Shown piece after piece: positions 3,564-25,100 of a DNA stretch of 25,100 nt. The stretch spans positions 1 through 25,100 of the forward strand of contig JBBCAX010000093.1 of NCBI GenBank assembly GCA_051382335.1, read 5' to 3'. The notes under the pieces are model-generated. The model was not told the DNA's origin, searched no databases, and saw only the letters and a program-made list of their open reading frames with translations. Origin of the DNA: Deltaproteobacteria bacterium TL4 (GTDB lineage Bacteria; SAR324; NAC60-12). Numbering within the stretch: position 1 is the stretch's first letter; each line of letters opens with the position of its first letter. A program made the translations under genes and the position numbers.

Positions 3564-3825
3564 CGCTTCCCATAAATTATTGGAGTACCTCAACAACGAA
3601 TTGTGAGGTGTTTAGCTTATTATTTTAATGAGTCCTTAACTAATCTCCAAACCTAAGATCTTCAAGACAAAATCTTCAGGACCATTGTTTAGACTTGAAC
3701 TTCACGGGCTATAACGCCTACTTTGTGAACCTGAATCAGAAAATGCAGAAAGAACTGATCGAACGGACTGAATTCGGTATATGATCCGGGGGGATGGTTC
3801 ATCACACAGGCTGTGATTTCTATTC

Positions 3826-3854
3826 AAAAAGACAAGTCCTCAAGTCAGGACTTG
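3826..3854 (-). terminator. Rho-independent terminator downstream of the tricorn gene
   Basis: 8-bp stem CAAGTCCT/AGGACTTG with a 6-nt loop, followed by TCTTTTT on the minus strand, about 12 nt after the stop. Confidence 0.75.
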
Positions 3855-3865
3855 CTTCCTTTATG

Positions 3866-8987: not shown

Positions 8988-9165
8988 CTAGGAGGCTGTC
9001 CGAGAATAGAATGTGAATTCGTAGGGTGGGTTAGCCGCAAGGCGTAACCCACCAAAAACCAGGTATTTTGGAGCAAAATGAAGCGTTTCGTATTAAAATT
9101 GGTGGGTTACGACTTCGCTTTGGCTCAGTCTAACCCTCCCTACGAGTTCTCGGACAGCCTCCTAG
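8988..9165. mobile_element. MITE-like element with perfect terminal inverted repeats enclosing a GTAG-type REP doublet
   Basis: CTAGGAGGCTGTCCGAGAA (8988-9006) is the exact reverse complement of 9147-9165. Internally, GTAGGGTGGGTTAGCCGCAAGGCGTAACCCACCA is paired with an inverted copy ending CCCTAC. Confidence 0.75.
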
Positions 9166-10805: not shown

Positions 10806-10981
10806 TTTTTCTCTCCAGGTTCCATTTAAAATTTATCAATATTCCTTAATTTGGCCTTGCCTTTAAGTTTTTAATACTGATAGAAGCTTATTATCACTTA
10901 TCCATTATTCAAACATGACTTTGGGGGAAACATGTTTCGTATCACCGTTTCCTTTCCATAAAAATCATTTTACCGGAACTT

Positions 10982-11088
10982 CTATAGTGTTTCAGAAAAG
11001 TATTTTGGGCTGAGAGTGCAGGCGTCCCGCCTGCTTTTGTGGGCAGGATGCCCGCATTCTCATGAAAGACTTATCTGAAAGTCTATAG
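10982..11088. mobile_element. MITE-like element (TATAG-ended family) with a GC-rich internal palindrome
   Basis: 24-bp imperfect TIRs with 4 mismatches (CTATAGTGTTTCAGAAAAGTATTT vs CTATAGACTTTCAGATAAGTCTTT). Internal stem TGAGAGTGCAGGCGTCCCGCC..GGCAGGATGCCCGCATTCTCA. Related to 16897-17000. Confidence 0.65.
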
Positions 11089-11115
11089 TTTGGTTTAAAT
11101 GTAAACCTATTGAAA

Positions 11116-11203
11116 TGGTAGCCGGGGACTACGTGCCCCGGAAAAAACAGGGAAATCCCCTTGTTTTATGCGGTTTTTATGGGCACGTAGTCCCTCCCTA
11201 CCA
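11116..11203. repeat. GTAG-type REP doublet, copy 1
   Basis: TGGTAGCCGGGGACTACGTGCCC ... GGGCACGTAGTCCCTCCCTACCA form an inverted pair; a second copy lies at 11310-11366. Confidence 0.7.
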
Positions 11204-11255
11204 CTTTTTAGCCTTTAATTTCAACTGGTTGCAATATTGCGACAAAATATCAAAC

Positions 11256-11508
11256 GGCTACTCACTTAACCCCCATGAGACAAGTCTCACAACGAAGCAT
11301 GAAAGTAATTGGTAGGCCGGGATTACATGCCCTGCAAAATGAGGGGCACGTAGTCCCCTTCTACCACTTTCTTACAAAAACCGGGACACAGGGTAGGATG
11401 TGTTAGCCGGTAGGCGTAACGCCTCAATAAACCCGCCTCTGCCTGATGCGTTACGCTCGCAAGCTCACTAACACATCCTCCCCTGTGTCTCGGCTTAAGT
11501 GAGTAGCC
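11256..11508. mobile_element. Composite miniature element with perfect 14-bp TIRs enclosing two REP doublets
   Basis: GGCTACTCACTTAA (11256-11269) / TTAAGTGAGTAGCC (11495-11508). Contains doublets at 11310-11366 and 11381-11493; the latter (GTAGGATGTGTTAGCC..GGCGTAACGC) resembles the REP inside 8988-9165. Confidence 0.65.
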
Positions 11509-11618: not shown

Positions 11619-13040
11619 TCATTCAGGATTGAGACCTGTACTCGAAAAATCAGTAGAGGCTTTTTTCGAAAAATCATATTTTTTAATTTTAGCATTTAAA
11701 GTGACTCTGCTGATATCCAGTTCTTCCGCACTTTTGGTCAGGTGAAAGCGATTTTTTAGCAGGGTTCCGAGCAGGAGTTCCTTTTCAAGGGCCTCAATAC
11801 TTTTTTCCAGTAATTTTTCCGAAAAACGGGATGAAAAATATTCATACAGATTCAAATCTTCCCTGGAAGATCCGGGAGACACATTGGAGCGAACTTTAAA
11901 GTCTTCCAGTTCCAGACATGTGGAGGAAGAAAGAATCACCGCCCGTCGGATTGCATTTTGTAATTCACGGATATTGCCTGGCCATGAGTGGTTTGCTGCC
12001 TTTTCAAAAATTCTGTGATCTATATGGGAAATCGGTTTATTCATTTCTTCAGCATATCGACGGGTAAAATGAATCAGGAGTTCCTTCATATCCGTTTTTC
12101 TTTCACGTAAAGGCGGAAGTTCGATGTTGATACCATCCAGCCGATAAAACAGTTCCTCCCTGAAGGTTCCTTCCCTGATCAGTTGGGGTAAGTCATGATT
12201 GGTGGCTGCGATCACCCTGACGTCAACAGGCTGAAGGGAATTCTGCCCCAGTTTTTCAATATTTTTTTCCTGCAAGACTCTTAGGAGTTTAATCTGCAGA
12301 TTCAACGACATGTCCCCGATTTCATCCAGAAAAACGGTCCCTTTATCCGCAAATTCAAATTTGCCAGGTTTTTCCTGATAGGCCCCACTGAAGGCACCTT
12401 TAGCGTAACCAAAGAGTTCACTTTCCAGCAGATTTTCCGGAATGGCGGCGCAATTAATCGCGACAAAGTTTTTATTTTTTCTGGGGCTGTACTGATGAAT
12501 CAGTGTGGCCACCAGTTCTTTGCCCGTACCACTTTCACCGGTAATCAATACGGGAGAGTCCGTACCGGACGCACGAGCGATGATTTTCAATTCCGAATTA
12601 ATCGCGGGCGAAGAACCGACCAGGCTCCCCTTATGAAAAGGATAATCCCCAATGTAAAAAGCATTTTCATCCTTATTTTTCTGATTTTTAGGAAGGTGCT
12701 TTTGAATCATTTTTTCTAGTTCGACCTGCTCTATCGGTTTGACGACATAATCCGACGCGCCGAAGTTGATAGAATTCAGAACGGTTTCCGAGGTCCCAAA
12801 GCCGGTCATAAAAATAACCGGAATTTCATTAAATTGAGTTTTTATTTTTTTCAGTACCTCCAAGCCGTCTTCTTCTCCCAAGCGGTAATCCAACAGAATC
12901 AAATCAATAGGGTTCTGTTTCAGGAAGTCCAGTGCTTCACAGGAGTCACCAGCGGTATCGACACGGTATTGATCGGTCAGAACCCGTTTCATTCCGTAGC
13001 AAAGCGAGGCATCATCATCGATAATCAAAATTTTTTTCAT
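11619..13040 (-). CDS. Sigma54-dependent response regulator (NtrC family; AioR/ArxR-like by context)
   Basis: Receiver domain (IIDDD, LLDY, MTG, VKP); AAA+ GESGTGKE, ESELFG, GAFSGA, FLDEIG, WPGNIREL; Fis-like HTH. Start placed at ATG 13040 (MKKILIIDD). Confidence 0.92.
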   Translation of the reverse strand: MKKILIIDDDASLCYGMKRVLTDQYRVDTAGDSCEALDFLKQNPIDLILLDYRLGEEDGLEVLKKIKTQFNEIPVIFMTGFGTSETVLNSINFGASDYVVKPIEQVELEKMIQKHLPKNQKNKDENAFYIGDYPFHKGSLVGSSPAINSELKIIARASGTDSPVLITGESGTGKELVATLIHQYSPRKNKNFVAINCAAIPENLLESELFGYAKGAFSGAYQEKPGKFEFADKGTVFLDEIGDMSLNLQIKLLRVLQEKNIEKLGQNSLQPVDVRVIAATNHDLPQLIREGTFREELFYRLDGINIELPPLRERKTDMKELLIHFTRRYAEEMNKPISHIDHRIFEKAANHSWPGNIRELQNAIRRAVILSSSTCLELEDFKVRSNVSPGSSREDLNLYEYFSSRFSEKLLEKSIEALEKELLLGTLLKNRFHLTKSAEELDISRVTLNAKIKKYDFSKKASTDFSSTGLNPE

Positions 13041-14427
13041 GTTTAAATTCCAGCAAAAAACGTGCTCCCTGAGGGTATTCTTCATCGGTCCAGATTGTTC
13101 CGTTCATGGCTTGGACCAACATTTGAGTAATGGATAACCCTAAGCCGGTCCCCTTACTTTTCGTGGTAAAAAAAGGCATAAAAATTTTTTTAGCAATCCC
13201 TTGCTCCAATCCAATGCCATTATCGGTAATGTCAAATATCATGCTCTTTTTTTCAATTTTCGTGGTGATCTCCAGCTTTCTCGCACCGGCTTCTACCGCG
13301 TTATCCACTAAATTGGAGAAAATCCGCAGTAATTTTTCCTTGTCCGTCAAAAAAATAACATCGTTTTCCGTTTTTACGTTCACGGTAAGCGCGCTGCCGT
13401 ATCTTTGATCCGCATCAATCATCACTTCTTCCAGCAAGAACAGCAGCCTCTGCTCCGTAAACTGAAGTTCCATCGGTTTGGAAAAACCCAGCAAATCATT
13501 CACTCTTATCGCCAACCGGTCTGCCTCTTTTTCAATGACCGGCATATCAGGCTCAAAGCGGCAATTTCCGCACTCGGCGTTTATTTTGTGGGATAATAGC
13601 TTAATGGTCATAATCGGACTTTTCAGTTCATGAGCGACCTGTGCGGACATTCTTCCAATGGCAGCTAAATTTTCATGATGAGCCAACTGCTGTTCCTTTT
13701 CCCTGATTTTTTCCGTGGAATCCATCAACCTGACCGACATTTCAAACAAATTATCCCTGAGTTGATGGACTTCCAGAGGGGCATAACGGGGCAACCAGAT
13801 TTCCATGGGAAAAGTTTCAAAATCGGTTTCCTTGACTTTCTCGGTCAGTGTTTCCAGAGGTTTGGTCAGGAAAAAAATAATCTTGCCCCCAATCACGACG
13901 CCCATCATCAATACCAGGCACTGAAGCATCAAAAGACGGACCACTTTCAGGTAAATTTGAGCATTGATTTTGTCGGTATCAATCTCAAACACCTGATAGC
14001 CCAACAGAACATCGTTCACTTGGATCGGTTTATAGAACAGTCGAATTCCTGACTTGGGAGAGATGACTGTTGTCGCGGATGAAATGGCGGGTAAGTAGGG
14101 AAATTTGTGGAGGACAAGGGCATCCGTCAAATAGATTTTATCCTTATCCAGAATATAAACATTGAGTATCAGGGAGGACTTATCGGCAATTGCCTCAATC
14201 ACCTCATGAATGGTGAAAATATTCTGAAACAAAAAGGCTTCTGCTAATATTTCATGGACAATGGCATGCTGACTCGACAGTAGCTGTTCCAGATTCTCTT
14301 CGATAAACTTTCTTTGAAAGGAAAAAGTGATCACCAGGTTAATCAGCATGGTTGTCGCTCCCAGTCCGATAATCAGCAGGAAAATCTGATTCTTGGTTTT
14401 CCTGGGATACAGGCTATTCAGTTTCAT
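13015..14427 (-). CDS. Membrane sensor histidine kinase (AioS/ArxS-like by context)
   Basis: Two TM helices around a periplasmic domain; HAMP-like linker; H-box AHELKSP; N-box NLVDNA; DNGIG; FxPFFTTK; GTGLGL. Confidence 0.92.
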   Translation of the reverse strand: MKLNSLYPRKTKNQIFLLIIGLGATTMLINLVITFSFQRKFIEENLEQLLSSQHAIVHEILAEAFLFQNIFTIHEVIEAIADKSSLILNVYILDKDKIYLTDALVLHKFPYLPAISSATTVISPKSGIRLFYKPIQVNDVLLGYQVFEIDTDKINAQIYLKVVRLLMLQCLVLMMGVVIGGKIIFFLTKPLETLTEKVKETDFETFPMEIWLPRYAPLEVHQLRDNLFEMSVRLMDSTEKIREKEQQLAHHENLAAIGRMSAQVAHELKSPIMTIKLLSHKINAECGNCRFEPDMPVIEKEADRLAIRVNDLLGFSKPMELQFTEQRLLFLLEEVMIDADQRYGSALTVNVKTENDVIFLTDKEKLLRIFSNLVDNAVEAGARKLEITTKIEKKSMIFDITDNGIGLEQGIAKKIFMPFFTTKSKGTGLGLSITQMLVQAMNGTIWTDEEYPQGARFLLEFKHEKNFDYR

Positions 14428-15268
14428 GGAGAACCTTTTTCATTTGGAGAACGTTCCGAAAGGCCTTCGCTGGGGGAACACGAAAACGATCAATTTTCAA
14501 TTTACGTAAAATGTCTTTTCCTTCACGGGTACGATCCAAATCCAGAAAAATTTCCCTGATGAATAAAAATTCCTCTTGGCTCAACCTTGTCGAAGCAACA
14601 AGCGGAGGGGCGGTAAATTCATCCGATCTATGAATCACTTTAATATTTTGAACAGATTCAGGAGTTTCTTGCGCCATGAATTCAAAAACCAAACTATCCA
14701 CCGAAGCCGCCTCAACGACCCCTTTATTGACCAGAAGGATGGATCTGTCATGACTGTAGGTATAGTAAGATTTTTTGAAAAAATTTTCTGCGGAATATCC
14801 GTTTTTTTTTAATAAATAGTGCGAATATAACCATCCGCTGTTGGATAACGGGTCAGTGAAAGCAAAAATTTTGCCGCGTAATGCCTGAATGGAATCTATG
14901 TTAACTTTATTGTTGGTGATAATGAAAGCTTGATAGGTGGTTTTTCCTCTTACCTCGGGAACAACAATCACCCTGATTTGTGTCGGATCCAAATCCAGCA
15001 GGGATCCTGTACAAATACTGGCAAAATGGACTTTGGAGTTTTCAATGAGTCGATTCATTTCCCCATATTCTCGCTTAAATAACAGAACGATTTCTTTATG
15101 CGTTCTTTTGGAAAGATAATCGGTTAAATCCTTGTACAAAAACAGATTTTTTTCAGGAGAGATAATGGACGCTATTCCGAAAATCCACTGATTTTCCGCA
15201 AATATCCTTAAAGGAAGATTGGCAAGAAGGACAATAAACATTATCAAAAACGGGGCTTTTTTTAACAT
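14414..15268 (-). CDS. Periplasmic oxyanion-binding protein, PhnD fold (AioX/ArxX/ArrX-like)
   Basis: Signal peptide; LRGKIFAFTDPLSNSG, SHDRSI and AASVDS motifs; single Cys in ASICTG. Overlaps the kinase gene; no ABC permease or ATPase is adjacent. Confidence 0.85.
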   Translation of the reverse strand: MLKKAPFLIMFIVLLANLPLRIFAENQWIFGIASIISPEKNLFLYKDLTDYLSKRTHKEIVLLFKREYGEMNRLIENSKVHFASICTGSLLDLDPTQIRVIVVPEVRGKTTYQAFIITNNKVNIDSIQALRGKIFAFTDPLSNSGWLYSHYLLKKNGYSAENFFKKSYYTYSHDRSILLVNKGVVEAASVDSLVFEFMAQETPESVQNIKVIHRSDEFTAPPLVASTRLSQEEFLFIREIFLDLDRTREGKDILRKLKIDRFRVPPAKAFRNVLQMKKVLHETE

Positions 15269-15449
15269 TCCGAAGCATTAGATCGGGTTAGGCAAGAGGC
15301 CTTTGGCAGAAAAAATTTTTACTTCGCCCCAAAGATAGTCGTTATGCAGGAAAAAGAAAAGTAAATTATGTACAGAATGTTTCCATCATTGAGTAATAAC
15401 GTAAATAAAGTATACACAGCCAAAAATATTTTTAATTATTAATAAGTGA

Positions 15450-15462
15450 TATCAATAGGTTA
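15450..15462 (+). promoter_or_regulatory. IHF binding site
   Basis: TATCAATAGGTTA matches WATCAANNNNTTR exactly, with an AT-rich tract upstream, just before a -24/-12-like element. Confidence 0.65.
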
Positions 15463-15477
15463 TCTTTAATTATAAAC

Positions 15478-15494
15478 TTGGTATCATTTTTGAA
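15478..15494 (+). promoter_or_regulatory. Putative sigma54 (-24/-12) promoter for the porin/molybdoenzyme genes
   Basis: TTGGTATCATTTTTGAA reads as GG-N10-GA (TTGA instead of TTGC at -12). It lies next to an IHF site and diverges from a sigma54 activator gene. Confidence 0.6.
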
Positions 15495-15513
15495 GAAGAG
15501 ATAAGGGTTTAAA

Positions 15514-15682
15514 GAGTCATTGTTGCGGAATTAAACAGGGAGGAGTGTAGTCCCTCTTTTCTTCGGGAAAAAGTAATGACTCAAGTATCATTTTGCCGTC
15601 TTGAGTGTCCGCAAAAAATTCGTCTTAACGGATAATCTCAAGGCCAAGAAGTAGATTGACTCCTTGGTGTTGGGTAAGATGA
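15514..15682 (+). ncRNA. Candidate structured 5' leader RNA (two tandem three-way junctions)
   Basis: Stems 15514-15524/15572-15582 and 15588-15597/15673-15682 each enclose two hairpins. G-U pairs and a cUUCGg tetraloop favour the + strand. No family recognised. Confidence 0.45.
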
Positions 15683-15709
15683 GTTATTGAATTTCAAACA
15701 AGGAGTATT

Positions 15710-16753
15710 ATGAAAGTTGTATCAAAATTGTTGTTAGTTGTTGCTGTGGTGTTTTCAGGTTTTCAATCGGCTCAAGCCGCATGTATGAATGATAAGGCCT
15801 TCTGCTATAAAATAGATATCTATGCTGGTCTTTATATGAACACCCCAGAAAACACGGATCATGGGTACGCAACCACGAATACCTATGGACGTTCGGATGT
15901 TAAAGTTGTGAGTAATGTCGCGGAAAAAGATGGCTGGAAGGCGACAGGAACCCTTAAATTGGAACTTAATACCAAGGGAGATGGCGCGACCAATAAGGCG
16001 GATGAGGTTTATTTAGACCTTTCTAGCGGGGGTCTTTCCATCATCGCGGGATGGTTTAATCTGAAAGGGGATGGTTACAATGGCAGTGATTTGGGCGGAG
16101 CTTATCTCACAGAGGAGTCAGGCAGCAGTTGGCTTGGTGTTTACGGAGACAAAGCAGATGATGCTCCAACCTTGGCAGTCACTTATAAGGTGTTAGAGGC
16201 ACTCACATTGAAACTAGGGTTAATTGAAAAACAGAATGAACATACTACGACTGATGCAAGTGGCACAACAACGTCAGCTAATCTCCAGTCTCAAATCGTT
16301 GATTTCATTGCCGTCTATTCAGCAAGTGGACTTGCTGTTTCTTTTGAAATAGAAAATGCGTCAGAAACAGACAATGATGTTGCGGATGCCAAGGGGATTA
16401 CCGCTGGTGATTCAACTAGTGAAATGGGTTTAGGACTTCAATACACAGCAGGAATGTTTGCCCCCTTTGCCGCTTATGGAACTTCCAATGATGGAACCAA
16501 TACCGCAACAAATACTCTCGTAGGGATCGATTTACATGATGTCGCAGGAATGGGCATCACTGTGGGCACTGAACTTGGGGATGATGGCACAGGCAACGGA
16601 GAGGCAGGCGTCAACACTTGGACTAATACATTTTTTGCGCTTAAAATTCCTATGGGTCCTGGCAGTTTTACAGCGGGTTATGCTGCTACCGACAGAGTGG
16701 GATCTAAAGTGGTTGCGTCTCAGGTTGTTTTCGAATTCGCGGTTCATCTATAA
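15710..16753 (+). CDS. Putative outer-membrane porin / beta-barrel protein
   Basis: AGGAG RBS; Sec signal ending AQA; alternating amphipathic strands (GLGLQYTAG, PFAAYG, FTAGYA); Gly/Thr/Asp-rich loops; C-terminal strand VVFEFAVHL. Confidence 0.7.
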   Translation: MKVVSKLLLVVAVVFSGFQSAQAACMNDKAFCYKIDIYAGLYMNTPENTDHGYATTNTYGRSDVKVVSNVAEKDGWKATGTLKLELNTKGDGATNKADEVYLDLSSGGLSIIAGWFNLKGDGYNGSDLGGAYLTEESGSSWLGVYGDKADDAPTLAVTYKVLEALTLKLGLIEKQNEHTTTDASGTTTSANLQSQIVDFIAVYSASGLAVSFEIENASETDNDVADAKGITAGDSTSEMGLGLQYTAGMFAPFAAYGTSNDGTNTATNTLVGIDLHDVAGMGITVGTELGDDGTGNGEAGVNTWTNTFFALKIPMGPGSFTAGYAATDRVGSKVVASQVVFEFAVHL

Positions 16754-16896
16754 ATTAAACCTTGTTGAAAAGATGGCTAGGTCTTGTTCAACTTGTTTTT
16801 GAATTAGGGTGTCTAAAGTTAACTTTTGATAAGATTACTTTTCCCATTTTTTTAGCACTCCCAAAAATCAGGTAAAACTCCTCAGAAAAAAGGGCA

Positions 16897-17000
16897 TATA
16901 GATGTCCAAATAAGTTTTTTCCTGGGAACGAGGGCCTCTTGCCCTCACCGGAGGGCGGGACGCCCTCCCCCCCGAGACAGAACTTTTCTGGACATCTATA
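16897..17000. mobile_element. MITE-like element (TATAG-ended family)
   Basis: Perfect 12-bp TIR TATAGATGTCCA/TGGACATCTATA extending imperfectly to AAGTT. Internal GAGGGCCTCTTGCCCTC-ACCG-GAGGGCGGGACGCCCTC palindrome like that in 10982-11088. Confidence 0.7.
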
Positions 17001-17229
17001 CGTGCGATTTTTCTGGATCCATTTTTTGGGTAAGCCATTGGATCAATTTAGGCGCTCTGTGATGAATACGGCTGTTCTGTTTAGCGCTGAATAATATATT
17101 CTGGGTGCTGAGCGTTTATCGTGGTGGAGGCTCTGGGAAAGCTGGAGGAGTGGCCCCCGATTGAAGGAGTGAGATTTCGCAAAAAATGCTCCTTAAAATT
17201 AATATTGAACTTTTATTTAGGAGATAGAG

Positions 17230-18078
17230 ATGGAAGCAAAAGTCGAAGAAAGACAAAAAATATCACGACGGGGATTTCTCGTGACTACGGCAGCAGTAGG
17301 GGCTGCGGCTACGGTGGTTTCGCCTCGTTCATTGTTAGCGGAAACAGAACATCCTTCGCTAGAGGCCGCTAGAAAAAACAGTAACGTTCGTTGGGGCTTT
17401 GTTGTGGATTTGAGGCGCTGTGTGGGGTGTAAAGCCTGTTCCGTTGCCTGCAAGCAGGAAAATAACGTCCGTCTGGGGGTTTTTCGTTCCGAGGTTCGGG
17501 AACATGTCTCAGGAAACTACCCCAGTACAAAAAGAAATTTTGTTCCCTGGCTTTGCAATCATTGTGAAAATCCAGCTTGTCTTGAGAATTGCCCTGTTGA
17601 CCCTGTGGCTGCCGCTTATAAGTTTCCCAATGGAAAAATGGTAGAATATCAGAAGAAAGCTACATACAAAAGACCGGATGGCATTGTTTTGATCGATCAG
17701 GACCGTTGTGTCGGATGTGGAAATTGTGTGGATGATTGTCCGTATGGAGCACGGTATTTAGACCCAGTCAAACCCTCAGGAGGAGATCCCGATGATAACG
17801 CCGCGGATAAGTGTGATCTCTGTGTTCACCGGTTGGAAAAAGGAATCGTTCCCTCATGCGTCAACACTTGTGGAGCTGAAGCCCGCATTGTTGGTGATTT
17901 GAATGATCCGAACAGCGAGATTTCTAAAGTCATTGCCTCCAATAAGGATCAAATACGGGTTCTGTTGCCAGAGAAAAAAACATTGCCCCAAGTTTATTAC
18001 ATCGGGTTGAATGTTGAGGCTTATCGTTTGGGGATGGATGTCAAACTGGAAGCTGAAAAAGCTCAACAGGCATCATGA
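17230..18078 (+). CDS. Four-cluster [4Fe-4S] electron-transfer subunit (TtrB/PsrB/ArrB/DmsB family) with its own Tat signal
   Basis: AGGAG RBS; SRRGFL twin-arginine motif; Cys groups CVGCKACSVAC, CNHCENPAC..CP, CVGCGNCVDDCP and CDLC..CVNTC. Confidence 0.93.
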   Translation: MEAKVEERQKISRRGFLVTTAAVGAAATVVSPRSLLAETEHPSLEAARKNSNVRWGFVVDLRRCVGCKACSVACKQENNVRLGVFRSEVREHVSGNYPSTKRNFVPWLCNHCENPACLENCPVDPVAAAYKFPNGKMVEYQKKATYKRPDGIVLIDQDRCVGCGNCVDDCPYGARYLDPVKPSGGDPDDNAADKCDLCVHRLEKGIVPSCVNTCGAEARIVGDLNDPNSEISKVIASNKDQIRVLLPEKKTLPQVYYIGLNVEAYRLGMDVKLEAEKAQQAS

Positions 18079-18143
18079 ACGTGTAATAGAACAATTGATG
18101 GTACCCTTATTTGATGATAACATTTTTGTAAGCAGAGGCTAAC

Positions 18144-20699
18144 ATGACCCAACAAACTGAAATAAATCGAAGAAAATTTGTTAAATTAAGCGCCTTGGCA
18201 GGCGGTTTGGCCGCTAGCGGTATTTTGGCTAGCTGTACCAAAAAAGGAGACATTTCTCCTGCCCCTTCAAAAGTAGAATCGGCATCCGCCCTTTCCGACG
18301 GATCTTTGGCTGGGAAATTAGTGATGGGGGGAAAAGATATATCACCCACCACACAAAAAGAAAGAAAAGCCATTCCGACCGCCTGCTGGCAATGTGTGGC
18401 TCGTGATGCCGCCATTGGCTATGTGGAAGACGGTCGGATCGTTAAACTGGAAGGAAACCCTGAATCGCTTCGAACCAACGGAAAACTCTGTGCCAGAGGC
18501 CAGGGTGGTATTGGTCAGGTTTATAATCCAGACCGCCTGCTCTATCCTATGAAACATGTGGGATCAGAACGAGGCGACGGCCAATGGAAACGGATTAGCT
18601 GGGATGAGGCTTATGAGATCATGGTCTCCAAGCTCAAACCATTGATGGATAGTGGCCATCCGGAAAAAATTATGTTCCATTATGGCCGCATGAAAGGCAG
18701 CAGCAGCCCGATCATCAATGATTTCTTTTTTAAGACAACCGTAGGCACAAAAACGATTGAGGGACATACCTCCATTTGTGAAGGCGGGAAATGGACCGCG
18801 CAGGAATTAACCTGGGGGAATCATTATGACATCAATGATGTCGCCCATACCAATTTTATTTTGAATTTCGGCTGCAATTTTTTTGAGACGCATACCAGTC
18901 ACATCCCCTTTTCGCAACGTGTCGTCAAAGCCCAGACCCGTGGGGTCAAGATCGTGACCTTTGATGTCAGGCTGTCCAATACTGCCGCCCGTTCCGATGA
19001 ATGGATTCCAGTAAAACCGGGGACGGATGGGGCCGTGGTGTTGGCCATGTGTCATGTGATTATGAAAAATAATCTCCATGACGCTGACTACATTGAAAAA
19101 TGGACCAACGCTACAGTGGATGAGTTGAAAACCCATTTGGCGCAATATACACCAGAATGGGCTGAGGGCATCAGTGGAGTATCTGCCTCGAAAATTAAAG
19201 CACTGGCCCTTGAATTCGCTAAAGCCAAACCCGCGACGGTGGTTTCTTATCGGGGGGTTGCCGCTCATTATAACGTCGTCCAGTCTGAACGAGCGATGTT
19301 TCTTTTGGAGGCTATCTGCGGTTACTTGAATCGTAAGGGCGGACGGAATAAAGCCGTCGGTGGTAAATGGAAAAATTCCTATAAGCCCGTTGATGGGGTT
19401 AAAGGCCTGAAAGTCAACAAAGGAGACGGCTTGGCCTATCCTACTCATGGTGTCTGTCAACAAGTGTTGCCCTTGATTAAGGATGGGAAATTTGGACGTC
19501 CTGACGTTTATATCACGTATTGCTATAATCCAACGTATGTCAATGGGGATTGCGGAGGTAATATCGCGATTATGAAAGACAAGAGTTTGATTCCGTTTAT
19601 TATTGCCAGTGATGTTTCCTATGGAGAAGGAACCTCGTTGGCCGATTTGATTTTGCCGGACGCGACCTATCTGGAACGCTGGAATTGGGATGATATGGTT
19701 TCCTACGATCAGGTTCCTGAATTTTATATCCGCCAGGCATTGATTAAGCCCTTGGGAGAAGCCGTCGATTTTTCCAATGTGGGGATTGAACTGGCAAAAC
19801 GTTTGGGTAAACCGCTGCCGTTTTCCAGTGCGGAAGAGTTTGTCAAAAATGCCTGTGAAAACACCCCTGAAATAAAAGCGGTGGGAGGTTTTGAATACAT
19901 GGTTCAGCATGGCGCATGGCATGATAAAAACGCCAAGCCGAAGTACAGTTCCCATGAAAAAGTTATTTCAGGAGATGCCCTGAAGGATGTCAAATACACA
20001 CCCGCAGGACGAAAAGGGGAACAAGTGGTTTATACTGGCGATATATATGATGATAAACATTACGTCGGCGTAAAAGTCGGAGATGTGGTCTATGAAGGAT
20101 TCAAACCCGACAAAATCGCCAGGAAAACAGGGCTGTTGAGTCTATATTCCGATGAGTTGAAAGACAAAGGATTTGACCCGCTTCCTTCCTGGATGCCTAT
20201 TCCTGATCACCAGGATATTCAAGAAAATGAACTCGTCATGACGACTTACAAAGTAAGAGTACAAACCCATTCTCGTACTCAGAACTGTAAGCTATTGAGT
20301 GAATTGTATCATGACAATCCGGTCTGGATTAACACGCAAACCGCTAACAGACTGGGAATCCAAAATGGAGGAAAGGTCAAGCTGACCTCCAAGGTTCTTG
20401 GAGTTTCCAAGGAATATGACGTCAGGGTCACCGAAGAAGTTGTGCCGGGAGTCGTCGCTATTTCCCATCACTGCGGTCATTGGCAGCATGGTGAATATGC
20501 CTCCGGAAAATCGGCAGCGTATCGGGACAACGTGAACACCCCCTCAGAAGGATGGAACGATGTGAAGGATGTGGACCTTAAACTGAAATGGTGGAAAAAA
20601 AACGGAGAGCATCCCAACTGGCTGATGCCCAATGACTCTGATCCTATCGCCGGACAAATGAGGTTTATGGATCATGTGGTTCAGGTTATGCCGCTCTAG
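18144..20699 (+). CDS. Mo/W-bisPGD (DMSO reductase family) catalytic subunit, ArrA/ArxA/TtrA/PsrA-like branch, substrate unknown
   Basis: NRRKFV Tat motif plus LASC lipobox; CWQCVARD-X27-C; LCARG; YNPDRLLYP; WKRISWDEA; HTSIC (probable Mo-ligand Cys212); PGTDGA; ADLILPDATYLER; THSRT. Confidence 0.92.
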   Translation: MTQQTEINRRKFVKLSALAGGLAASGILASCTKKGDISPAPSKVESASALSDGSLAGKLVMGGKDISPTTQKERKAIPTACWQCVARDAAIGYVEDGRIVKLEGNPESLRTNGKLCARGQGGIGQVYNPDRLLYPMKHVGSERGDGQWKRISWDEAYEIMVSKLKPLMDSGHPEKIMFHYGRMKGSSSPIINDFFFKTTVGTKTIEGHTSICEGGKWTAQELTWGNHYDINDVAHTNFILNFGCNFFETHTSHIPFSQRVVKAQTRGVKIVTFDVRLSNTAARSDEWIPVKPGTDGAVVLAMCHVIMKNNLHDADYIEKWTNATVDELKTHLAQYTPEWAEGISGVSASKIKALALEFAKAKPATVVSYRGVAAHYNVVQSERAMFLLEAICGYLNRKGGRNKAVGGKWKNSYKPVDGVKGLKVNKGDGLAYPTHGVCQQVLPLIKDGKFGRPDVYITYCYNPTYVNGDCGGNIAIMKDKSLIPFIIASDVSYGEGTSLADLILPDATYLERWNWDDMVSYDQVPEFYIRQALIKPLGEAVDFSNVGIELAKRLGKPLPFSSAEEFVKNACENTPEIKAVGGFEYMVQHGAWHDKNAKPKYSSHEKVISGDALKDVKYTPAGRKGEQVVYTGDIYDDKHYVGVKVGDVVYEGFKPDKIARKTGLLSLYSDELKDKGFDPLPSWMPIPDHQDIQENELVMTTYKVRVQTHSRTQNCKLLSELYHDNPVWINTQTANRLGIQNGGKVKLTSKVLGVSKEYDVRVTEEVVPGVVAISHHCGHWQHGEYASGKSAAYRDNVNTPSEGWNDVKDVDLKLKWWKKNGEHPNWLMPNDSDPIAGQMRFMDHVVQVMPL

Positions 20700-20736
20700 T
20701 TTTTAGGTTTCGATTTAAATCGAAATGTTTTCCACA

Positions 20737-20762
20737 AGGGTGGTTTAGGCCACCCTCTTTTT
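20737..20762 (+). terminator. Rho-independent terminator/attenuator after the catalytic subunit gene
   Basis: Stem AGGGTGGT/GCCACCCT with TTAG loop, followed by CTTTTT. Confidence 0.7.
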
Positions 20763-20794
20763 ATAGCTGTCTTTCAACTTCAGCATGAGTTGAT

Positions 20795-21436
20795 TTGACC
20801 GAAACGAGCTTTATGGATAAACCACTTACCCCACTGGAACGATCAAAAATTTACTATTGGTTGTCAAGAGTCTTTCGCTCGGAAATCTCTCTTGATTTTC
20901 TGGATACGATTCTGGACAACAAAGCTCTGCTTCAGAACGTAGGTTTTGAATTGGACGAAGTTTTTTTTTCTACGGAAAAAGAGTCTCTTCTGGAACAACT
21001 GGCGATCGAATATACCCGTTTATTTCTTGGGCCTGGAAGTCATATCTCTTTGGTGGAATCCGTTCATAGACCAGAATGTGGTACTTTTTGGGGTGAATCA
21101 ACTTCGGAGGTGGTAAAATTTTTTTCCCATTATGGACTTTCTCCCGCAGCGGACAATCGTGAATTTCCTGATCATCTGTCTCTTTGCCTGGAGTTTATGG
21201 GCAAGTTGACCGAATTTGAACAAACCGCAAGCGACGAAAAAAGGCAACCTGAAGCCAATCAGTGTCTCGCCGCGCAAAAACTCTTCTTTACCCAACATAT
21301 CCATAATTGGGTTCCCCATCTTTGTGAGTTGATCATAACAAAAGCGGCACTCTCTTTTTATCGGGAATCCTCCAGGATGACCCAACAATTCATCCAGAGT
21401 GAAGCGGAATTTTTTAACACCATACAATATCCCTGA
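20795..21436 (+). CDS. TorD/DmsD family maturation chaperone
   Basis: EYTRLFLGP, ESVH, EFPDHLSLCLEFM and FFTQHIHNW motifs. Alternative start at ATG 20813. Confidence 0.92.
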   Translation: MTETSFMDKPLTPLERSKIYYWLSRVFRSEISLDFLDTILDNKALLQNVGFELDEVFFSTEKESLLEQLAIEYTRLFLGPGSHISLVESVHRPECGTFWGESTSEVVKFFSHYGLSPAADNREFPDHLSLCLEFMGKLTEFEQTASDEKRQPEANQCLAAQKLFFTQHIHNWVPHLCELIITKAALSFYRESSRMTQQFIQSEAEFFNTIQYP

Positions 21437-21493
21437 ATTCGACTTTATTTTTAGGGGATTAATCCTATATTTTCGCATCCATGGAGTCAACAC

Positions 21494-21739
21494 ATGCAGA
21501 TCACCCTCGTCGCCTATGCCGTTTTGAGTGATATGATTTCAGATATTCCTTTTGTCCTTGAAGTGAGTGAAGGCACCACTGCGGAACAATTGATGCGTTT
21601 GCTTGCGGAGAAATATCCTCAGGCCGACAAAATTATTCCCTATACTCGTTTAGGCTGTAGAGACGATTATGTTGACAAAACCACTAAACTGGTTTCCCAG
21701 CAGGAATATAGCTTGATACCGCCGATCAGTGGCGGATAA
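21494..21739 (+). CDS. moaD: Molybdopterin synthase sulfur carrier subunit
   Basis: 81 aa ubiquitin-like protein ending IPPISGG; GGAG RBS; adjacent to moaA and moaE. Confidence 0.88.
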   Translation: MQITLVAYAVLSDMISDIPFVLEVSEGTTAEQLMRLLAEKYPQADKIIPYTRLGCRDDYVDKTTKLVSQQEYSLIPPISGG

Positions 21740-21760
21740 ACAGAATTTAATTTTTTTTAA

Positions 21761-21924
21761 TATTTTCCGATTCACCTTTCCTAAGGAAACAGGGAAGAAA
21801 ATGACTGGCGAGATTTACTAAGTTTCAGCAGACTAACTCGCCCAAGTCGTCCATGACTAAGGAATGGTGAACGATAGGGTTGTCGGGAAAACCTGGCAGC
21901 CTCCCGTGTTTGGAAAGGAGAATA
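21761..21924 (+). promoter_or_regulatory. Moco/Tuco-class riboswitch (MOCO RNA motif)
   Basis: P1 TATTTTCC/GGAGAATA covers the moaA RBS; CCTAAG receptor-like motif; AGGGTTGTC-GGGAAAACCT-GGCAGCCT P4; hallmark 3' GCCTCCCGTGTTTGGAAAGGAG directly upstream of moaA. Confidence 0.85.
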
Positions 21925-21928
21925 CGTA

Positions 21929-22891
21929 ATGTTGGATAGTTATGGCAGGACCATAAATAAGCTACGTCTTTCAGTTGGTAGTGTCTGTAACTTAGGTTGC
22001 ATCTACTGTGTTGATCGTGCTCAAGATCATTGCCCATCATCATCACCACTTTCTTCCGAGCAGCTTTTAAAGCTGGTCGGTTTGCTCAAAGACAGTGTTG
22101 GTATTGAAAAAATCAGACTGACTGGCGGAGAACCGCTGCTTTTTAAACCGCTTCCCCACTTGATTGAAGGGTTATCTACCTTAGGGCTTTCTTCCATCGG
22201 ATTGACTACCAATGGTGTTTTGCTGGCCAACCAGGCCGCTCGTTTGAAAGCGGCAGGACTCCAGAAAATCAATATCAGTCTGGACTCGGTGGACTCCAGC
22301 CATTTCAAGACTATTACCCGCGGGGGACGTCTCTCGAAAACGCTCCAGGGCATTGAGTCTGCCGTTCGGGAGAACCTTCAGATAAAAATCAACACCGTGG
22401 TGATTCGAGGAATCAACGAGAGCGAAATTCTCGATATTTTGGATTTTGGATTAAGCCGGGGAATTGAAGTACGTTTTTTGGAATTGATGAAGATGGGGCC
22501 GTTATACTGCCAGTCCCCCTCATCGTTTTCTTCCCATTTCGTTTCCATGCGGGAAATCCTGGAAAGCATCCGTCAAAAATATTCCTTCAAACGCCTTCAG
22601 GAAGAAGAAAACGATGCAACCGCCATTCGGTTTCGTTTGCCCGGAGGCACCTTTGGGATAATCGCCAATGAAAGCGCGCCGTTTTGCCGAACGTGTTCCC
22701 GGTTGCGGTTATCCGTCAATGGGGAACTATTCGGTTGTCTAAGTCATCCCCAGCCGATTTCCATCAGGCATGTGCTGGAACATCCCCATCCGGAACAGGA
22801 ATTACACCAACTCGTGGAGCAAGCTGTACGGCAAAAACGAACTGACTTTTTCTCGGGTTCTCCCTTGAAAATGTCCTATGTTGGCGGCTAA
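21929..22891 (+). CDS. moaA: GTP 3',8-cyclase
   Basis: DSYGR..LRLSV; CNLGCIYC; RLTGGEP; TTNG; NISLDS; RFLELM; FCRTCSRLRL..C; C-terminal MSYVGG. Confidence 0.95.
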   Translation: MLDSYGRTINKLRLSVGSVCNLGCIYCVDRAQDHCPSSSPLSSEQLLKLVGLLKDSVGIEKIRLTGGEPLLFKPLPHLIEGLSTLGLSSIGLTTNGVLLANQAARLKAAGLQKINISLDSVDSSHFKTITRGGRLSKTLQGIESAVRENLQIKINTVVIRGINESEILDILDFGLSRGIEVRFLELMKMGPLYCQSPSSFSSHFVSMREILESIRQKYSFKRLQEEENDATAIRFRLPGGTFGIIANESAPFCRTCSRLRLSVNGELFGCLSHPQPISIRHVLEHPHPEQELHQLVEQAVRQKRTDFFSGSPLKMSYVGG

Positions 22892-22959
22892 AGTCTAAGA
22901 ACAGAAGTCATTTTTCAGAACTCATTACTGACGAAAATCTTAAAGAAGGGAGGAATTCA

Positions 22960-23397
22960 ATGTCATTCCTTACGCATAAAACCATTGCCATTGAGGAATT
23001 ATTGCACCGGGCGCACCATCCTGAAGCCGGGGCGGTAATCCTCTTTTGCGGGGATGTCCGCAATCATAATCAGGGAAAATCCGTTATTCATTTGGAATAT
23101 CAGGCCCATGTCTCTATGGCTGACGAGCAAATCCGGAAAATCGTTGAAGAAGCGCGGCAGCAATGGCCGTTGCATTACGTGGAAGTAATCCATCGCCTGG
23201 GAATCATCGCAATCCAGGAGTGTTCCGTCGCGATTGTGGTATCGGCCTCTCATCGTTCTGAGGCTTATGAAGCCAACCGGTTTATTATTGACACACTGAA
23301 ACATTCCGTTCCGATCTGGAAAAAAGAATACTATCAGGATGGCACCTCGGAGTGGAGTCAGGGCTGTGAAGCCTGTGCGCTTCATCAGGAAAAATGA
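22960..23397 (+). CDS. moaE: Molybdopterin synthase catalytic subunit
   Basis: GAVILFCGDVR, LEYQA, HRLG, HRSEAY and LKHSVPIWKKE motifs; GGAGG RBS. Confidence 0.95.
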   Translation: MSFLTHKTIAIEELLHRAHHPEAGAVILFCGDVRNHNQGKSVIHLEYQAHVSMADEQIRKIVEEARQQWPLHYVEVIHRLGIIAIQECSVAIVVSASHRSEAYEANRFIIDTLKHSVPIWKKEYYQDGTSEWSQGCEACALHQEK

Positions 23398-23416
23398 TTT
23401 AAAAACAGGAGTTGTC

Positions 23417-24607
23417 ATGAAATGTATTCTGCCTCACGGCATCCGTTTTAATCGCAATGAATTCGCCGGAGCCTTCGGTGATATCGGCACCGATTTGCCC
23501 TTAATCACCATGATCCTGTTGGTGTCAGGAATTGATACGGCCAGTGTCCTGATCCTGTTTGGACTGATGCAGGTATTCTCTGCTCTGGTCTATGGCATCC
23601 CAATGCCGGTACAGCCGCTTAAAGCCGTGGCCGCCATTGTGATTGCCGAAAAATTAACCGGCCCTGTGATTTACGGGGCAGGCTTGAGCATTGGGCTGCT
23701 TATGCTGCTGCTGACCGTCACCGGAGGAATTACCTGGTTGGCGAGGGTCATTCCCAAAGCGGTGATCCGGGGTATTCAGTTTGGCTTGGGCATTAAATTG
23801 GCGCTGCTAGCCTTGGGGAATTACGTTCAATCCGAAGGCCTCTGGGGATGGTCCTTGGCCGGTATTGCCTTTGTATTCAGCATCCTGCTGCTGGGAAATC
23901 GCAAATATCCACCTGCTCTGTTGTTGATTGGTCTTGGCGTGATTTACGCTATGGTGTTTAAACTGGATCTGATCACGCTTCCTCAGAAGGTGGGATTTGC
24001 CTGGCCCCAATGGTATTTCCCTGAATGGAAGGACTTGATACAAGGTTTTTTCCTTCTGGCAATCCCACAAATCCCATTATCCTTGGGAAACTCCATTTTC
24101 GCCACACAGCAAATTGCCAAGGACTTGTTTCCTGAAAAGCAAATTACGGTTAAAAAAATCGGTTTCACCTATTCGCTGATGAATTTGATTGTGCCGTTTT
24201 TGAGCGGCATCCCTGTCTGTCACGGTTCCGGAGGCATGGCGGGGCATTATATGTTCGGAGGCAGAACCGGAGGATCTGTGATAATTTACGGAGGACTATA
24301 CCTCGGATTGGGACTGCTGTTCAGTCAACACTTTGCGGACATCGTCCAAGTGTTTCCCCTACCAATTTTAGGCGTGATTTTATTTTTCGAGGGATTATTA
24401 TTGATGCGATTCATTGCGGATCTTATGAGAAGCAAAACTGATCTCTCTATCGCTTTGCTGGTGGGTGTCATTGCCGTGGGATTGCCCTACGGCTTTCTCA
24501 TCGCGATGTTGGTTGGCACGTTTCTTCATTATGCCTCGCTCAAATTTTCTCTGGGCTTTCATTCCTGTTTTGAAACCGACACACTGCCGCCTCCTGATAC
24601 CCCATAA
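23417..24607 (+). CDS. Putative molybdate/sulfate transporter (MOT1 family)
   Basis: NEFAGAFGDIGT, PMPVQPLKA, IRGIQFGLG, PQIPLSLGNS and PVCHGSGGMAGHYMFGGRTG motifs. Start placed at ATG 23417 after AGGAG. Confidence 0.9.
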   Translation: MKCILPHGIRFNRNEFAGAFGDIGTDLPLITMILLVSGIDTASVLILFGLMQVFSALVYGIPMPVQPLKAVAAIVIAEKLTGPVIYGAGLSIGLLMLLLTVTGGITWLARVIPKAVIRGIQFGLGIKLALLALGNYVQSEGLWGWSLAGIAFVFSILLLGNRKYPPALLLIGLGVIYAMVFKLDLITLPQKVGFAWPQWYFPEWKDLIQGFFLLAIPQIPLSLGNSIFATQQIAKDLFPEKQITVKKIGFTYSLMNLIVPFLSGIPVCHGSGGMAGHYMFGGRTGGSVIIYGGLYLGLGLLFSQHFADIVQVFPLPILGVILFFEGLLLMRFIADLMRSKTDLSIALLVGVIAVGLPYGFLIAMLVGTFLHYASLKFSLGFHSCFETDTLPPPDTP

Positions 24608-25100
24608 GGTTCCCATCAATAACGCCACACACGCTTCCACCACGGCCAGTCCCCCTTCAATACCGCCTTTGACTTTGTACTGAATGCCTTGTTCAACGCG
24701 ATAAAAACGCTCAATGCCCTTTTTGAAGGGAATTCCGGATACCGTTCTTTTGGGCTTAGAAAGTGTTTGTATGGATATGAGCGCCCGTTATTTTCCCGCC
24801 TTAAAAGAGAGGATCAATGATGATGATTTTTTTAATAAAGTAGTAACCATTGAGGTTTTTCAGAAATTATAATTTTTGCTTGTCACCGGCTCCTTGTTTG
24901 TGCTATAGATAGTCAGAAAATAAATGTCGTACTTGAATTTTTTTCGGTGTAAAAAATGACCCCCTGAAAAGGCCGTGAGAGCGTTTTTCATACAACATGA
25001 ATGTCATTGATCGTAAAAATTTCAGCCCCCCTACAGGCTCTGTTAAAGAGTCCTGAGAGGATGTCCTCTAAAATTTTAGTCCTACTTTTCCTATTTGTCA

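What the first reader, a model, noticed from the sequence alone, without database searches (positions are those of the whole stretch)
11619..24607. Self-contained oxyanion-sensing molybdoenzyme island: XSR sensor, porin, B-A-D enzyme genes and riboswitch-controlled Moco supply
Seen: binding protein, kinase and sigma54 activator diverge from porin, FeS subunit, catalytic subunit, TorD, moaD, riboswitch, moaA, moaE and MOT1. Known: PhnD-fold X + S + R triads control arsenic enzymes (aioXSR, arxXSR, arrXSR). As I recall, X-S-R with B-A-D is also the gene set of the anrXSRBAD antimonate reductase cluster of Geobacter sp. SVR. Inference: this is an inducible periplasmic oxyanion respiration module (As, Sb, Se or S oxyanion) of an uncharacterised type, extended with its own porin and cofactor-supply genes.
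Basis: partly seen in the sequence, partly recalled or inferred. Interest (0 to 1): 0.88.

Follow-up and report, generated by a model that had tools for sequence, protein, structure and literature searches.

The report
Arsenic-sensing molybdoenzyme cluster, antimonate-reductase-like
This bacterium carries an arsenic-type sensor next to an exported molybdenum enzyme that likely reduces arsenate or antimonate; the layout recurs in many bacteria, and most neighbouring cofactor genes are the cell's ordinary single copies rather than a private supply.

Summary
All eleven genes and the riboswitch are real. The binding protein is an AioX/ArrX-type arsenic sensor: best structure match ArrX, all seven pocket residues kept. 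The catalytic subunit is neither ArrA nor PsrA/PhsA. It belongs to a large clade of unassayed sequences that includes the EbN1 'UnkA' branch of Duval 2008. It keeps the Gly-Arg, His and Mo-Cys that align with ArrA's arsenate site, and has Asp in place of the third Fe-S cysteine. The sensor accompanies the enzyme in 23 of 32 long related loci; porins and Moco genes recur too. 'Self-contained' fails: moaA and moaE are single-copy lineage genes, the riboswitch precedes moaA in 18 of 19 relatives, moaC/moeA/mobA lie elsewhere, and no quinol-oxidising subunit is in the window. Most likely an inducible periplasmic As(V)/Sb(V) reductase, probably in the Anr antimonate reductase clade. I could not fetch AnrA, so that membership is untested. 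Control by XSR is inferred; the promoter signal is weak.

The parts
11619..13085 (-). R: sigma-54-dependent response regulator (likely start at the second Met, about 13040)
   Evidence: PF00072, PF00158, PF02954; GAFSGA present; rpoN found in the genome
13015..14427 (-). S: membrane sensor histidine kinase
   Evidence: HisKA and HATPase_c; two hydrophobic segments
14414..15268 (-). X: AioX/ArrX-type arsenic-oxyanion binding protein
   Evidence: ArrX 158.8 bits, AioX 116.6, PhnD/PtxB at most 58.4; Y68, C86, Y112, S142, S144, H173, D191 match the seven AioX pocket residues; closest named relatives are Deferribacterota proteins at 44-47%
15450..15462 (+). IHF-consensus site (consensus recalled), weak
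   Evidence: Exact match; reached in 5.4% of 500 shuffles
15478..15494 (+). Candidate sigma-54 promoter for porin-B-A-D, degenerate (GA at -12), not significant alone
   Evidence: 4.7 bits against 12-21 for 14 family sites; 24% of shuffles reach it; a -12 GA variant also occurs in L143 and L038
15710..16753 (+). Porin, paralogue of a host porin
   Evidence: Porin_4 (6); 62% identical to a porin on G000 C50 in an unrelated context
16886..17011 (.). Genome-wide inverted-repeat element between porin and B; not part of the module
   Evidence: 61-nt arms; 161 BLAST hits in the genome
17230..18078 (+). B: Tat-exported four-[4Fe-4S] subunit
   Evidence: Fer4_11 and TAT_signal; 16 Cys (127); below TtrB and ArrB cut-offs
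18144..20699 (+). A: Mo-bisPGD catalytic subunit; Tat motif, lipobox-like LASC, Fe-S motif C81-C84-D88-C116, G181-R182, H208, Mo-ligand C212
   Evidence: Pfam; below every NCBIfam cut-off; motif counts; alignment to ArrA 6cz7 and PsrA 2vpw; trees
20737..20766 (+). Terminator-like hairpin between A and D
   Evidence: 8-pair stem plus T tract; consensus match only
20795..21436 (+). D: TorD/DmsD-type chaperone
   Evidence: PF02613 (6); single copy in the genome
21494..21739 (+). moaD, upstream of the riboswitch
   Evidence: ThiS, C-terminal GG; single copy (16)
21753..21936 (+). Moco RNA riboswitch without P3, with a long P2 insertion, covering the moaA ribosome-binding site and ATG
   Evidence: RF01055 61.2 bits; only copy found in the genome; folding z -3.7 (79); alignment with 18 relatives
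21929..22891 (+). moaA, lineage housekeeping copy
   Evidence: TIGR02666 over cut-off; orthologues in 21 of 24 family genomes
22960..23397 (+). moaE, lineage housekeeping copy
   Evidence: PF02391 (6); orthologues in 22 of 24 family genomes
23339..24607 (+). MOT1-family molybdate transporter, accessory
   Evidence: PF16983 (6); found in 0 of 24 family and 1 of 16 order genomes searched

Best explanation
The cluster likely encodes an inducible periplasmic reductase for a pentavalent arsenic-group oxyanion, arsenate as first guess and antimonate as second, placed beside the cell's ordinary molybdopterin genes. Predicted steps: the oxyanion would enter through the porin and bind X at its Cys/Ser/His pocket; X would trigger S, which would phosphorylate R, which would activate sigma-54 transcription of porin-B-A-D. 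D would mature A; A and B would be exported by Tat, with A probably lipid-anchored. Electrons would come from quinol through a DsrP/NrfD-type membrane protein, an Fe-S protein and c-type cytochromes encoded on contig C359, then through B and an Asp-ligated FS0 cluster to the Cys-bound Mo. The ars operon on C231 would export any As(III)/Sb(III) that enters the cell. The riboswitch would feedback-repress moaA translation for the whole cell. Shown: gene identities, motifs, clade, synteny, copy numbers. Inferred: substrate, direction, induction, electron donor, anchoring, metal.
For: X: ArrX is the best structure match and all seven pocket residues are kept. In ITC, AioX, ArxX and ArrX bound only arsenite or arsenate (ArrX also phosphate), not antimonite, selenate, thiosulfate or tetrathionate (PMC5908839 passages). 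A: G181-R182 aligns with ArrA G164-R165, and H208/C212 with ArrA's His/Cys; PsrA has Gly-His and no His there. PMC12949373 section 4.2 reports Gly-Arg in all As-metabolising enzymes it compared and not in true Ttr. GR, HT and CE are each in 119 of 119 close homologues; GR...HxxxCE is in 120 of 120 EbN1-type homologues. X lies beside the enzyme in 23 of 32 loci of at least 12 kb. In the host's order the 4 other genomes with X are among the 5 with this enzyme; the other 4 X copies in the phylum flank ArrA-type genes. arsC or acr3 adjoin 5 of 32 loci, including Azoarcus KH32C. Colinear X-S-R-porin-B-A-D occurs in L001, L038 and L040, with phosphate-selective O/P-type porins. In relatives a cytochrome/Fe-S/NrfD block follows B-A-D; its 44-70% homologues are on G000 C359. 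AnrA is cited as a DMSO-reductase-family Sb(V) reductase; its X-S-R-B-A-D gene order is recalled.
Against: No member of this clade that I could fetch has been assayed, and AnrA was not available. The family enhancer GTTAC-N6-GTAAC (11 of 14 related promoters) is absent here, and the sigma-54 site is not significant. A repeat element separates porin from B. PMC5908839 says pocket residues do not fix ligand choice and that XSR trees follow host phylogeny, so 'ArrX-like' need not mean arsenate. 27 of 32 loci have no ars gene in view, and two of the five positives supplied the query sequences. The closest in-phylum homologue (G053, 58%) has no XSR on its 8.7-kb contig. Overall A scores higher to PsrA than to ArrA (205 vs 141 bits; 373 vs 336). 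No structure model could be made.
Confidence: 0.65

Rival explanations
1. The enzyme works in the oxidising direction, as an anaerobic As(III)/Sb(III) oxidase like Arx, feeding electrons into the quinone or cytochrome pool.
For: The EbN1-type sister subclade has an AioX-like sensor (211.9 bits to AioX, 126.9 to ArrX), sigma-54 promoters and an extra polyferredoxin after D, which recalls ArxB'. Gly-Arg is shared with Arx. The genome has an ActB-like subunit with cytochrome and NrfD-type neighbours on C159.
Against: This X and the X of L001 in the same subclade score best to the arsenate binder ArrX; no polyferredoxin gene lies in the window; the only substrate cited for a B-A-D enzyme of this general kind (Anr) is reduced, not oxidised.
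Confidence: 0.15
2. It is a sulfur- or selenium-oxyanion reductase (thiosulfate, polysulfide, tetrathionate, selenite) that has taken over an arsenic-type sensor.
For: Best database matches are PsrA/PhsA (340.9 bits, cut-off 694). Tat signals on both A and B and B-before-A order are Ttr traits. Rhodanese genes adjoin L060, L063 and L085. DsrO/DsrP-type partners are sulfur-metabolism modules.
Against: PsrA lacks the Arg and His kept here; true Ttr lacks Gly-Arg (56); the X family bound no S or Se oxyanion tested; A falls outside the Psr/Phs-like clade; the TtrA model gives 104.5 bits against 1750 (7).
Confidence: 0.12
3. The neighbourhood is a mosaic: XSR, B-A-D and the moa block sit together but XSR no longer controls the rightward genes in this genome.
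For: Weak sigma-54 site, no family enhancer; repeat insertion before B; X is lower in GC (0.38 vs 0.47 for A) and closest to Deferribacterota proteins; porin and moa genes are host-type.
Against: All frames are intact; R keeps its receiver Asp and GAFSGA; X is single-copy and no ArrA-type gene was found elsewhere in the genome; R's helix-turn-helix differs from those that go with the enhancer, so another site is expected.
Confidence: 0.08

Closest known systems
Anr respiratory antimonate reductase (AnrA of Desulfuribacillus stibiiarsenatis MLFW-2 and Geobacter sp. SVR)
   Same: DMSO-reductase family, distinct from ArrA (papers). Gene set X, S, R, B, A, D with no membrane subunit matches anrXSRBAD as recalled; that colinear order occurs in this enzyme's subclade.
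   Different: Sequence relation untested: AnrA and both primary papers were unavailable. Here XSR is divergent and a porin precedes B. SVR is described as not respiring As(V), whereas this sensor is most like an arsenate binder.
'Unk' clade of Duval et al. 2008 (PMC2500031), divergent Azoarcus/Aromatoleum EbN1 branch
   Same: B-(C)-A order, Cys Mo ligand, related to Arr/Psr/Ttr, function unknown in that paper. An EbN1 protein (CAI09802.1) is in the sister subclade; Duval's UnkA is YP_160703.1 (47); that these are one protein rests on a recalled accession mapping.
   Different: About 39% identity to that branch; no NrfD subunit; ArrX-like rather than AioX-like sensor. Duval gives the Fe-S motif as C-x2-C-x3-C-x27-C, while both subclades mostly have Asp at the third position.
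Respiratory arsenate reductase ArrAB with ArrXSR
   Same: Tat-exported A and B, Cys Mo ligand, aligned Gly-Arg and His (61), ArrX-type sensor, often no C subunit.
   Different: 156.8 bits against a cut-off of 1600 (7); separate clade (117); order B-A, not A-B; GRM rather than GRY; Asp at FS0; sigma-54 regulator, unlike the CitB-type ArrR of Chrysiogenes.
Arx anaerobic arsenite oxidase with ArxXSR
   Same: XSR triad with a sigma-54 activator beside a Cys-ligated Mo enzyme.
   Different: No ArxB' or ArxC in the window; B precedes A; no ArxA reference was in my trees.
PsrABC/PhsABC/SrrABC
   Same: Best-scoring solved structure (2vpw) and NCBIfam model.
   Different: Half the cut-off; A-B-C order there; no Arg/His pair (61); separate clade (117).

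Membership tests
DMSO reductase (Mo/W-bisPGD) family, Cys-ligated Psr/Arr/Ttr branch | Molybdopterin, Molydop_binding and Fe4S4 domains; Cys as metal ligand; Tat signal | tested here: met
AioX/ArxX/ArrX arsenic-sensing proteins | Seven pocket residues including the Cys absent from PhnD | tested here: met
   7 of 7 (101-103; residue list from PMC5908839)
AioX/ArxX/ArrX arsenic-sensing proteins | Encoded with kinase and regulator, not with ABC permease and ATPase | tested here: met
AioX/ArxX/ArrX arsenic-sensing proteins | Binds arsenite or arsenate | not testable with these tools
   Needs ITC
Anr antimonate reductase | A subunit groups with AnrA of MLFW-2 and SVR | not testable with these tools
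   AnrA could not be fetched (33, 46, 86, 122 gave none); primary papers not held
Anr antimonate reductase | Gene set X, S, R, B, A, D (recalled) | tested here: met
   the reference order itself is from memory
Anr antimonate reductase | Sb(V) reduction and induction by antimony | not testable with these tools
   Bench test
ArrA | NCBIfam NF041714 score and placement in the Arr clade | tested here: not met
   156.8 bits vs 1600 (7); ArrA-type proteins of the same phylum give 1119-1296 (119); outside the 7-row Arr clade, SH-aLRT 100 (117)
ArrA | Gly-Arg (R165) in the substrate site | tested here: met
PsrA/PhsA/SrrA | NF012032 score, clade, A-B-C order with membrane subunit | tested here: not met
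   340.9 vs 694 (7); outside the Psr-like clade (117); no C gene (5, 6)
TtrA and Ttr-like arsenate reductases | About 1000-aa A, B-C-A order, NF011567 score | tested here: not met
   851 aa, 104.5 vs 1750, no C; Tat on both A and B is shared; no TtrA reference in my trees
ArxA | Placement within the ArxA/ArrA lineage; arxB'ABC genes | tested here: inconclusive
   No named ArxA was available; A is outside the clade of ArrA-scoring proteins; gene set differs
Moco RNA riboswitch RF01055 | Covariance score over gathering threshold, upstream of a Moco gene | tested here: met
Moco RNA, P3-containing (Moco-sensing) type | P3 stem present | tested here: not met
   P3 absent here and in 18 of 18 relatives; P3-less RNAs correlate with tungsten use in PMC2408646 section 11 (90)
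Self-contained island | Cofactor genes dedicated to the module and a complete electron path | tested here: not met

The most novel reading that the evidence does not exclude
A widespread third type of respiratory arsenate reductase, neither Arr nor Ttr-like, with an aspartate-ligated first Fe-S cluster and interchangeable electron-input modules (NrfD, multiheme cytochromes or none), spread across many uncultured phyla and invisible to arrA surveys; the antimonate reductase Anr would be one specialised offshoot of it.
Probability: 0.3. Interest if true: 0.7.

Novelty: new member of a known kind. Interest (0 to 1): 0.42.

Why it matters
The single locus is one more copy of a recurring architecture. 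The value lies in the clade: two searches each filled 120 rows with full-length members, automatic names call them thiosulfate reductases or generic dehydrogenases, and no NCBIfam model covers them. If they reduce arsenate or antimonate, marker-gene surveys miss part of the As/Sb cycle. The locus offers direct tests: a soluble sensor for ITC, a two-subunit enzyme, and a natural Cys-to-Asp Fe-S variant.

Tried and rejected
AnrA anchor: not obtained. The Kambara 2024 paper is not held; six paper searches and supplement searches gave no AnrA sequence, motif or homologue list; one supplement was unreadable and may list Anr accessions. A Trichlorobacter plasmid gave no route to Geobacteraceae genomes; three cluster look-ups named no Geobacter or Desulfuribacillus protein. 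Expression: no sequencing run was listed; this is no evidence. Earlier findings: three look-ups returned nothing. Tungsten reading of the P3-less riboswitch: not supported in this genome, since no AFOR_C match, the one PBP_like_2 match is PstS and a ModA-like gene exists; the metal stays open. Sigma-70 promoter scan: 12 sites against 16.2 expected. A 27-nt direct repeat upstream of porin and B (78%) was not treated as a signal. ESM Atlas gave only generic names. One motif tally failed through a spacing error and was redone in 129. Rows dropped: 11 of 199 before the tree (NarG-like, fragments, over-long); the tree used 50 hand-picked rows; neighbour counts use 32 of 105 loci (at least 12 kb and carrying GR...HxxxCE).
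Full report
Observation. RF01055 scores 61.2 bits at 21753-21936. It lies between moaD and moaA and covers moaA's ribosome-binding site and start codon. The window is the whole of contig C93 of a 6.59-Mb, 445-contig genome scored 100% complete. The host lineage was not named by any search.

The sensor. X matches ArrX best (158.8 bits), then AioX (116.6); PtxB/PhnD transport proteins score at most 58.4. PMC5908839 (passages) lists seven pocket residues including a Cys that PhnD lacks; all seven are kept (Y68, C86, Y112, S142, S144, H173, D191). In that paper AioX and ArxX bound arsenite, ArrX bound arsenate and phosphate, and none bound antimonite, selenate, thiosulfate or tetrathionate. It also warns that pocket residues do not fix selectivity and that XSR trees follow host phylogeny. 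The closest named X homologues are from Deferribacter and Seleniivibrio. In the host phylum X occurs in 9 of 88 genomes: this one, 4 of the 5 others that carry this enzyme family, and 4 in which it flanks ArrA-type genes.

The enzyme. A is below every NCBIfam cut-off (PhsA 340.9/694, ArrA 156.8/1600, TtrA 104.5/1750). Its 119 best homologues are 51-60% identical. All 119 keep G181-R182, H208-T209 and C212-E213; the third Fe-S ligand is Asp in 106 and Cys in 13. The family profile aligns the Gly-Arg with ArrA G164-R165 and the His and Cys with ArrA's (H189 and C193 by offset; that H189 contacts arsenate is recalled), while PsrA has Gly-His and no His. PMC12949373 section 4.2 (read whole) reports Gly-Arg in all arsenic enzymes it compared and not in true Ttr, untested by mutation. 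A 50-row IQ-TREE (quick search, SH-aLRT only) puts A in a 9-row clade (99) and the Azoarcus/Aromatoleum proteins in an 8-row clade (99), both inside a 28-row group (99) apart from ArrA-scoring (100) and Psr-like (99) rows; a 188-row FastTree agrees. Group labels were mine, checked for some rows by NCBIfam. No AnrA, ArxA or TtrA reference was in either tree, and the 28-row group also holds proteins without the Mo-ligand Cys and one long branch. Duval 2008 (PMC2500031; passages and one supplement row) described an EbN1 protein as a divergent branch of an 'Unk' clade of unknown function; an EbN1 protein is in the sister subclade.

Synteny. I compared 105 loci. Of these, 32 are at least 12 kb and carry the GR...HxxxCE signature: X in 23, NrfD in 21 (two more by blastp), cytochromes in 8, a porin in 9, arsC or acr3 in 5, Moco-related genes in 13. 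Two of the ars positives supplied the queries; of the Moco hits one is a weak partial match and one is a MobA-like stretch inside a kinase ORF. L001, L038 and L040 have colinear X-S-R-porin-B-A-D; Azoarcus KH32C has divergent XSR, B-C-A-D and arsC, arsD, arsA, acr3.

Not self-contained. moaA, moaD, MOT1, X and D each hit once in the genome and moaE once in full. moaA and moaE have orthologues in 21 and 22 of 24 family genomes. The riboswitch precedes moaA in 18 of 19 relatives, none with A, D, moaE or MOT1 within 1.5 kb. moaC, moeA-type genes, mobA and a ModA-like gene lie on other contigs. MOT1 is accessory (0 of 24), and the gathering of moaD, moaA, moaE and MOT1 beside the enzyme was seen only here among those relatives, which leaves room for selected clustering. 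The porin is a 62% paralogue of a host porin. No NrfD or heme protein is in the window; relatives place a cytochrome/DsrO-like/DsrP-like block after B-A-D, and its homologues are on C359 in two copies. An ars operon is on C231.

Regulation. R has the receiver Asp and GAFSGA, and rpoN is present. Related loci have clear sigma-54 promoters, and 11 of 14 have a GTTAC-N6-GTAAC enhancer. Here the best sigma-54 site (15478) scores 4.7 bits and is reached by 24% of shuffles, the enhancer is absent, and an IHF-consensus match lies 15 bp upstream (5.4% of shuffles). R's helix-turn-helix differs from those paired with that enhancer. Control by XSR is therefore inferred from synteny, not shown.

Riboswitch. 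It lacks P3, as do all 18 relatives aligned, and alone carries a 60-70 nt insertion. PMC2408646 section 11 (read whole) ties P3-less RNAs to tungsten use in 17 of 19 organisms. This genome showed no AFOR_C match and no TupA-like hit, but has ModA-like and MOT1 genes, so the metal is open; molybdenum is the default.

Literature seen. Passages: PMC13284237, PMC12183865, PMC11521347, PMC10100899, PMC7331816, PMC6011840, PMC5908839, PMC2500031. Named sections: PMC12949373 (4.2), PMC2408646. Whole text: PMC8032467. Kambara 2024 and Abin and Hollibaugh 2019 were seen only as reference lines; anrXSRBAD is recalled. In searches I found no paper that assays a member I could match by sequence or mentions the Asp-ligated cluster; the library lacks the two primary Anr papers, so this is no claim of absence.

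Verdict. A real XSR-linked As/Sb-type molybdoenzyme cluster. Most likely an As(V) or Sb(V) reductase (0.65: about 0.38 arsenate, 0.27 antimonate); oxidase 0.15; S/Se enzyme 0.12; uncoupled 0.08. I put membership in the Anr clade at about 0.6, untested. It is a new member of a known kind; the interest lies in the size and unassayed state of the clade.

Noticed in passing
window 21753-21936: Moco RNA lacks P3 (tungsten-correlated type) across the host family, yet no tungsten marker was found in this genome; this copy alone has a 60-70 nt P2 insertion.
   Followed up: partly
window 16886-17011 and about 10960-11500: Short palindromic repeat families with 161 and 170 BLAST hits in the genome.
   Followed up: partly
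window 24900-25100: The last 200 bases recur at 99-100% on five other contigs, probably the end of a mobile element that broke the assembly.
   Followed up: no
window 9162-10805: rtcR over the NCBIfam cut-off (709 vs 650) with no rtcA/rtcB ORF beside it in the window.
   Followed up: no
window 343-7150: Two tandem cyclic-peptide-export-type ABC transporters and a tricorn-type protease.
   Followed up: no
G000 C359 6600-23100 (L176): Two copies of a tetraheme cytochrome, DsrO-like and DsrP-like block among further multiheme cytochromes; candidate electron donor.
   Followed up: partly
G000 C231 13700-19400: ars operon (arsR, permease, arsC, acr3, arsD, arsA) next to an ABC transporter cluster.
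   Followed up: partly
G000 C117 10630-11130 (L171): ModA-like gene matched in two pieces near the contig end.
   Followed up: no
L038 2888-4984: Sensor kinase ORF with a C-terminal MobA-like stretch (34% over 196 aa) in an X-S-R-porin-B-A-D locus.
   Followed up: no
L023, L060, L062, L136-L138, L140, L142-L144, L027, L048: Conserved GTTAC-N6-GTAAC palindromes 55-140 bp upstream of sigma-54 promoters: likely the activator site of the EbN1-type subclade.
   Followed up: partly
P0284, P0287, P0293 and others: Many relatives within the larger clade lack the Mo-ligand Cys motif and may be cofactor-less subunits.
   Followed up: no
L165-L168 (G081, G075, G080, G074): ArrA-type operons with X and a kinase-activator-like fused ORF in another family of the same phylum.
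   Followed up: partly
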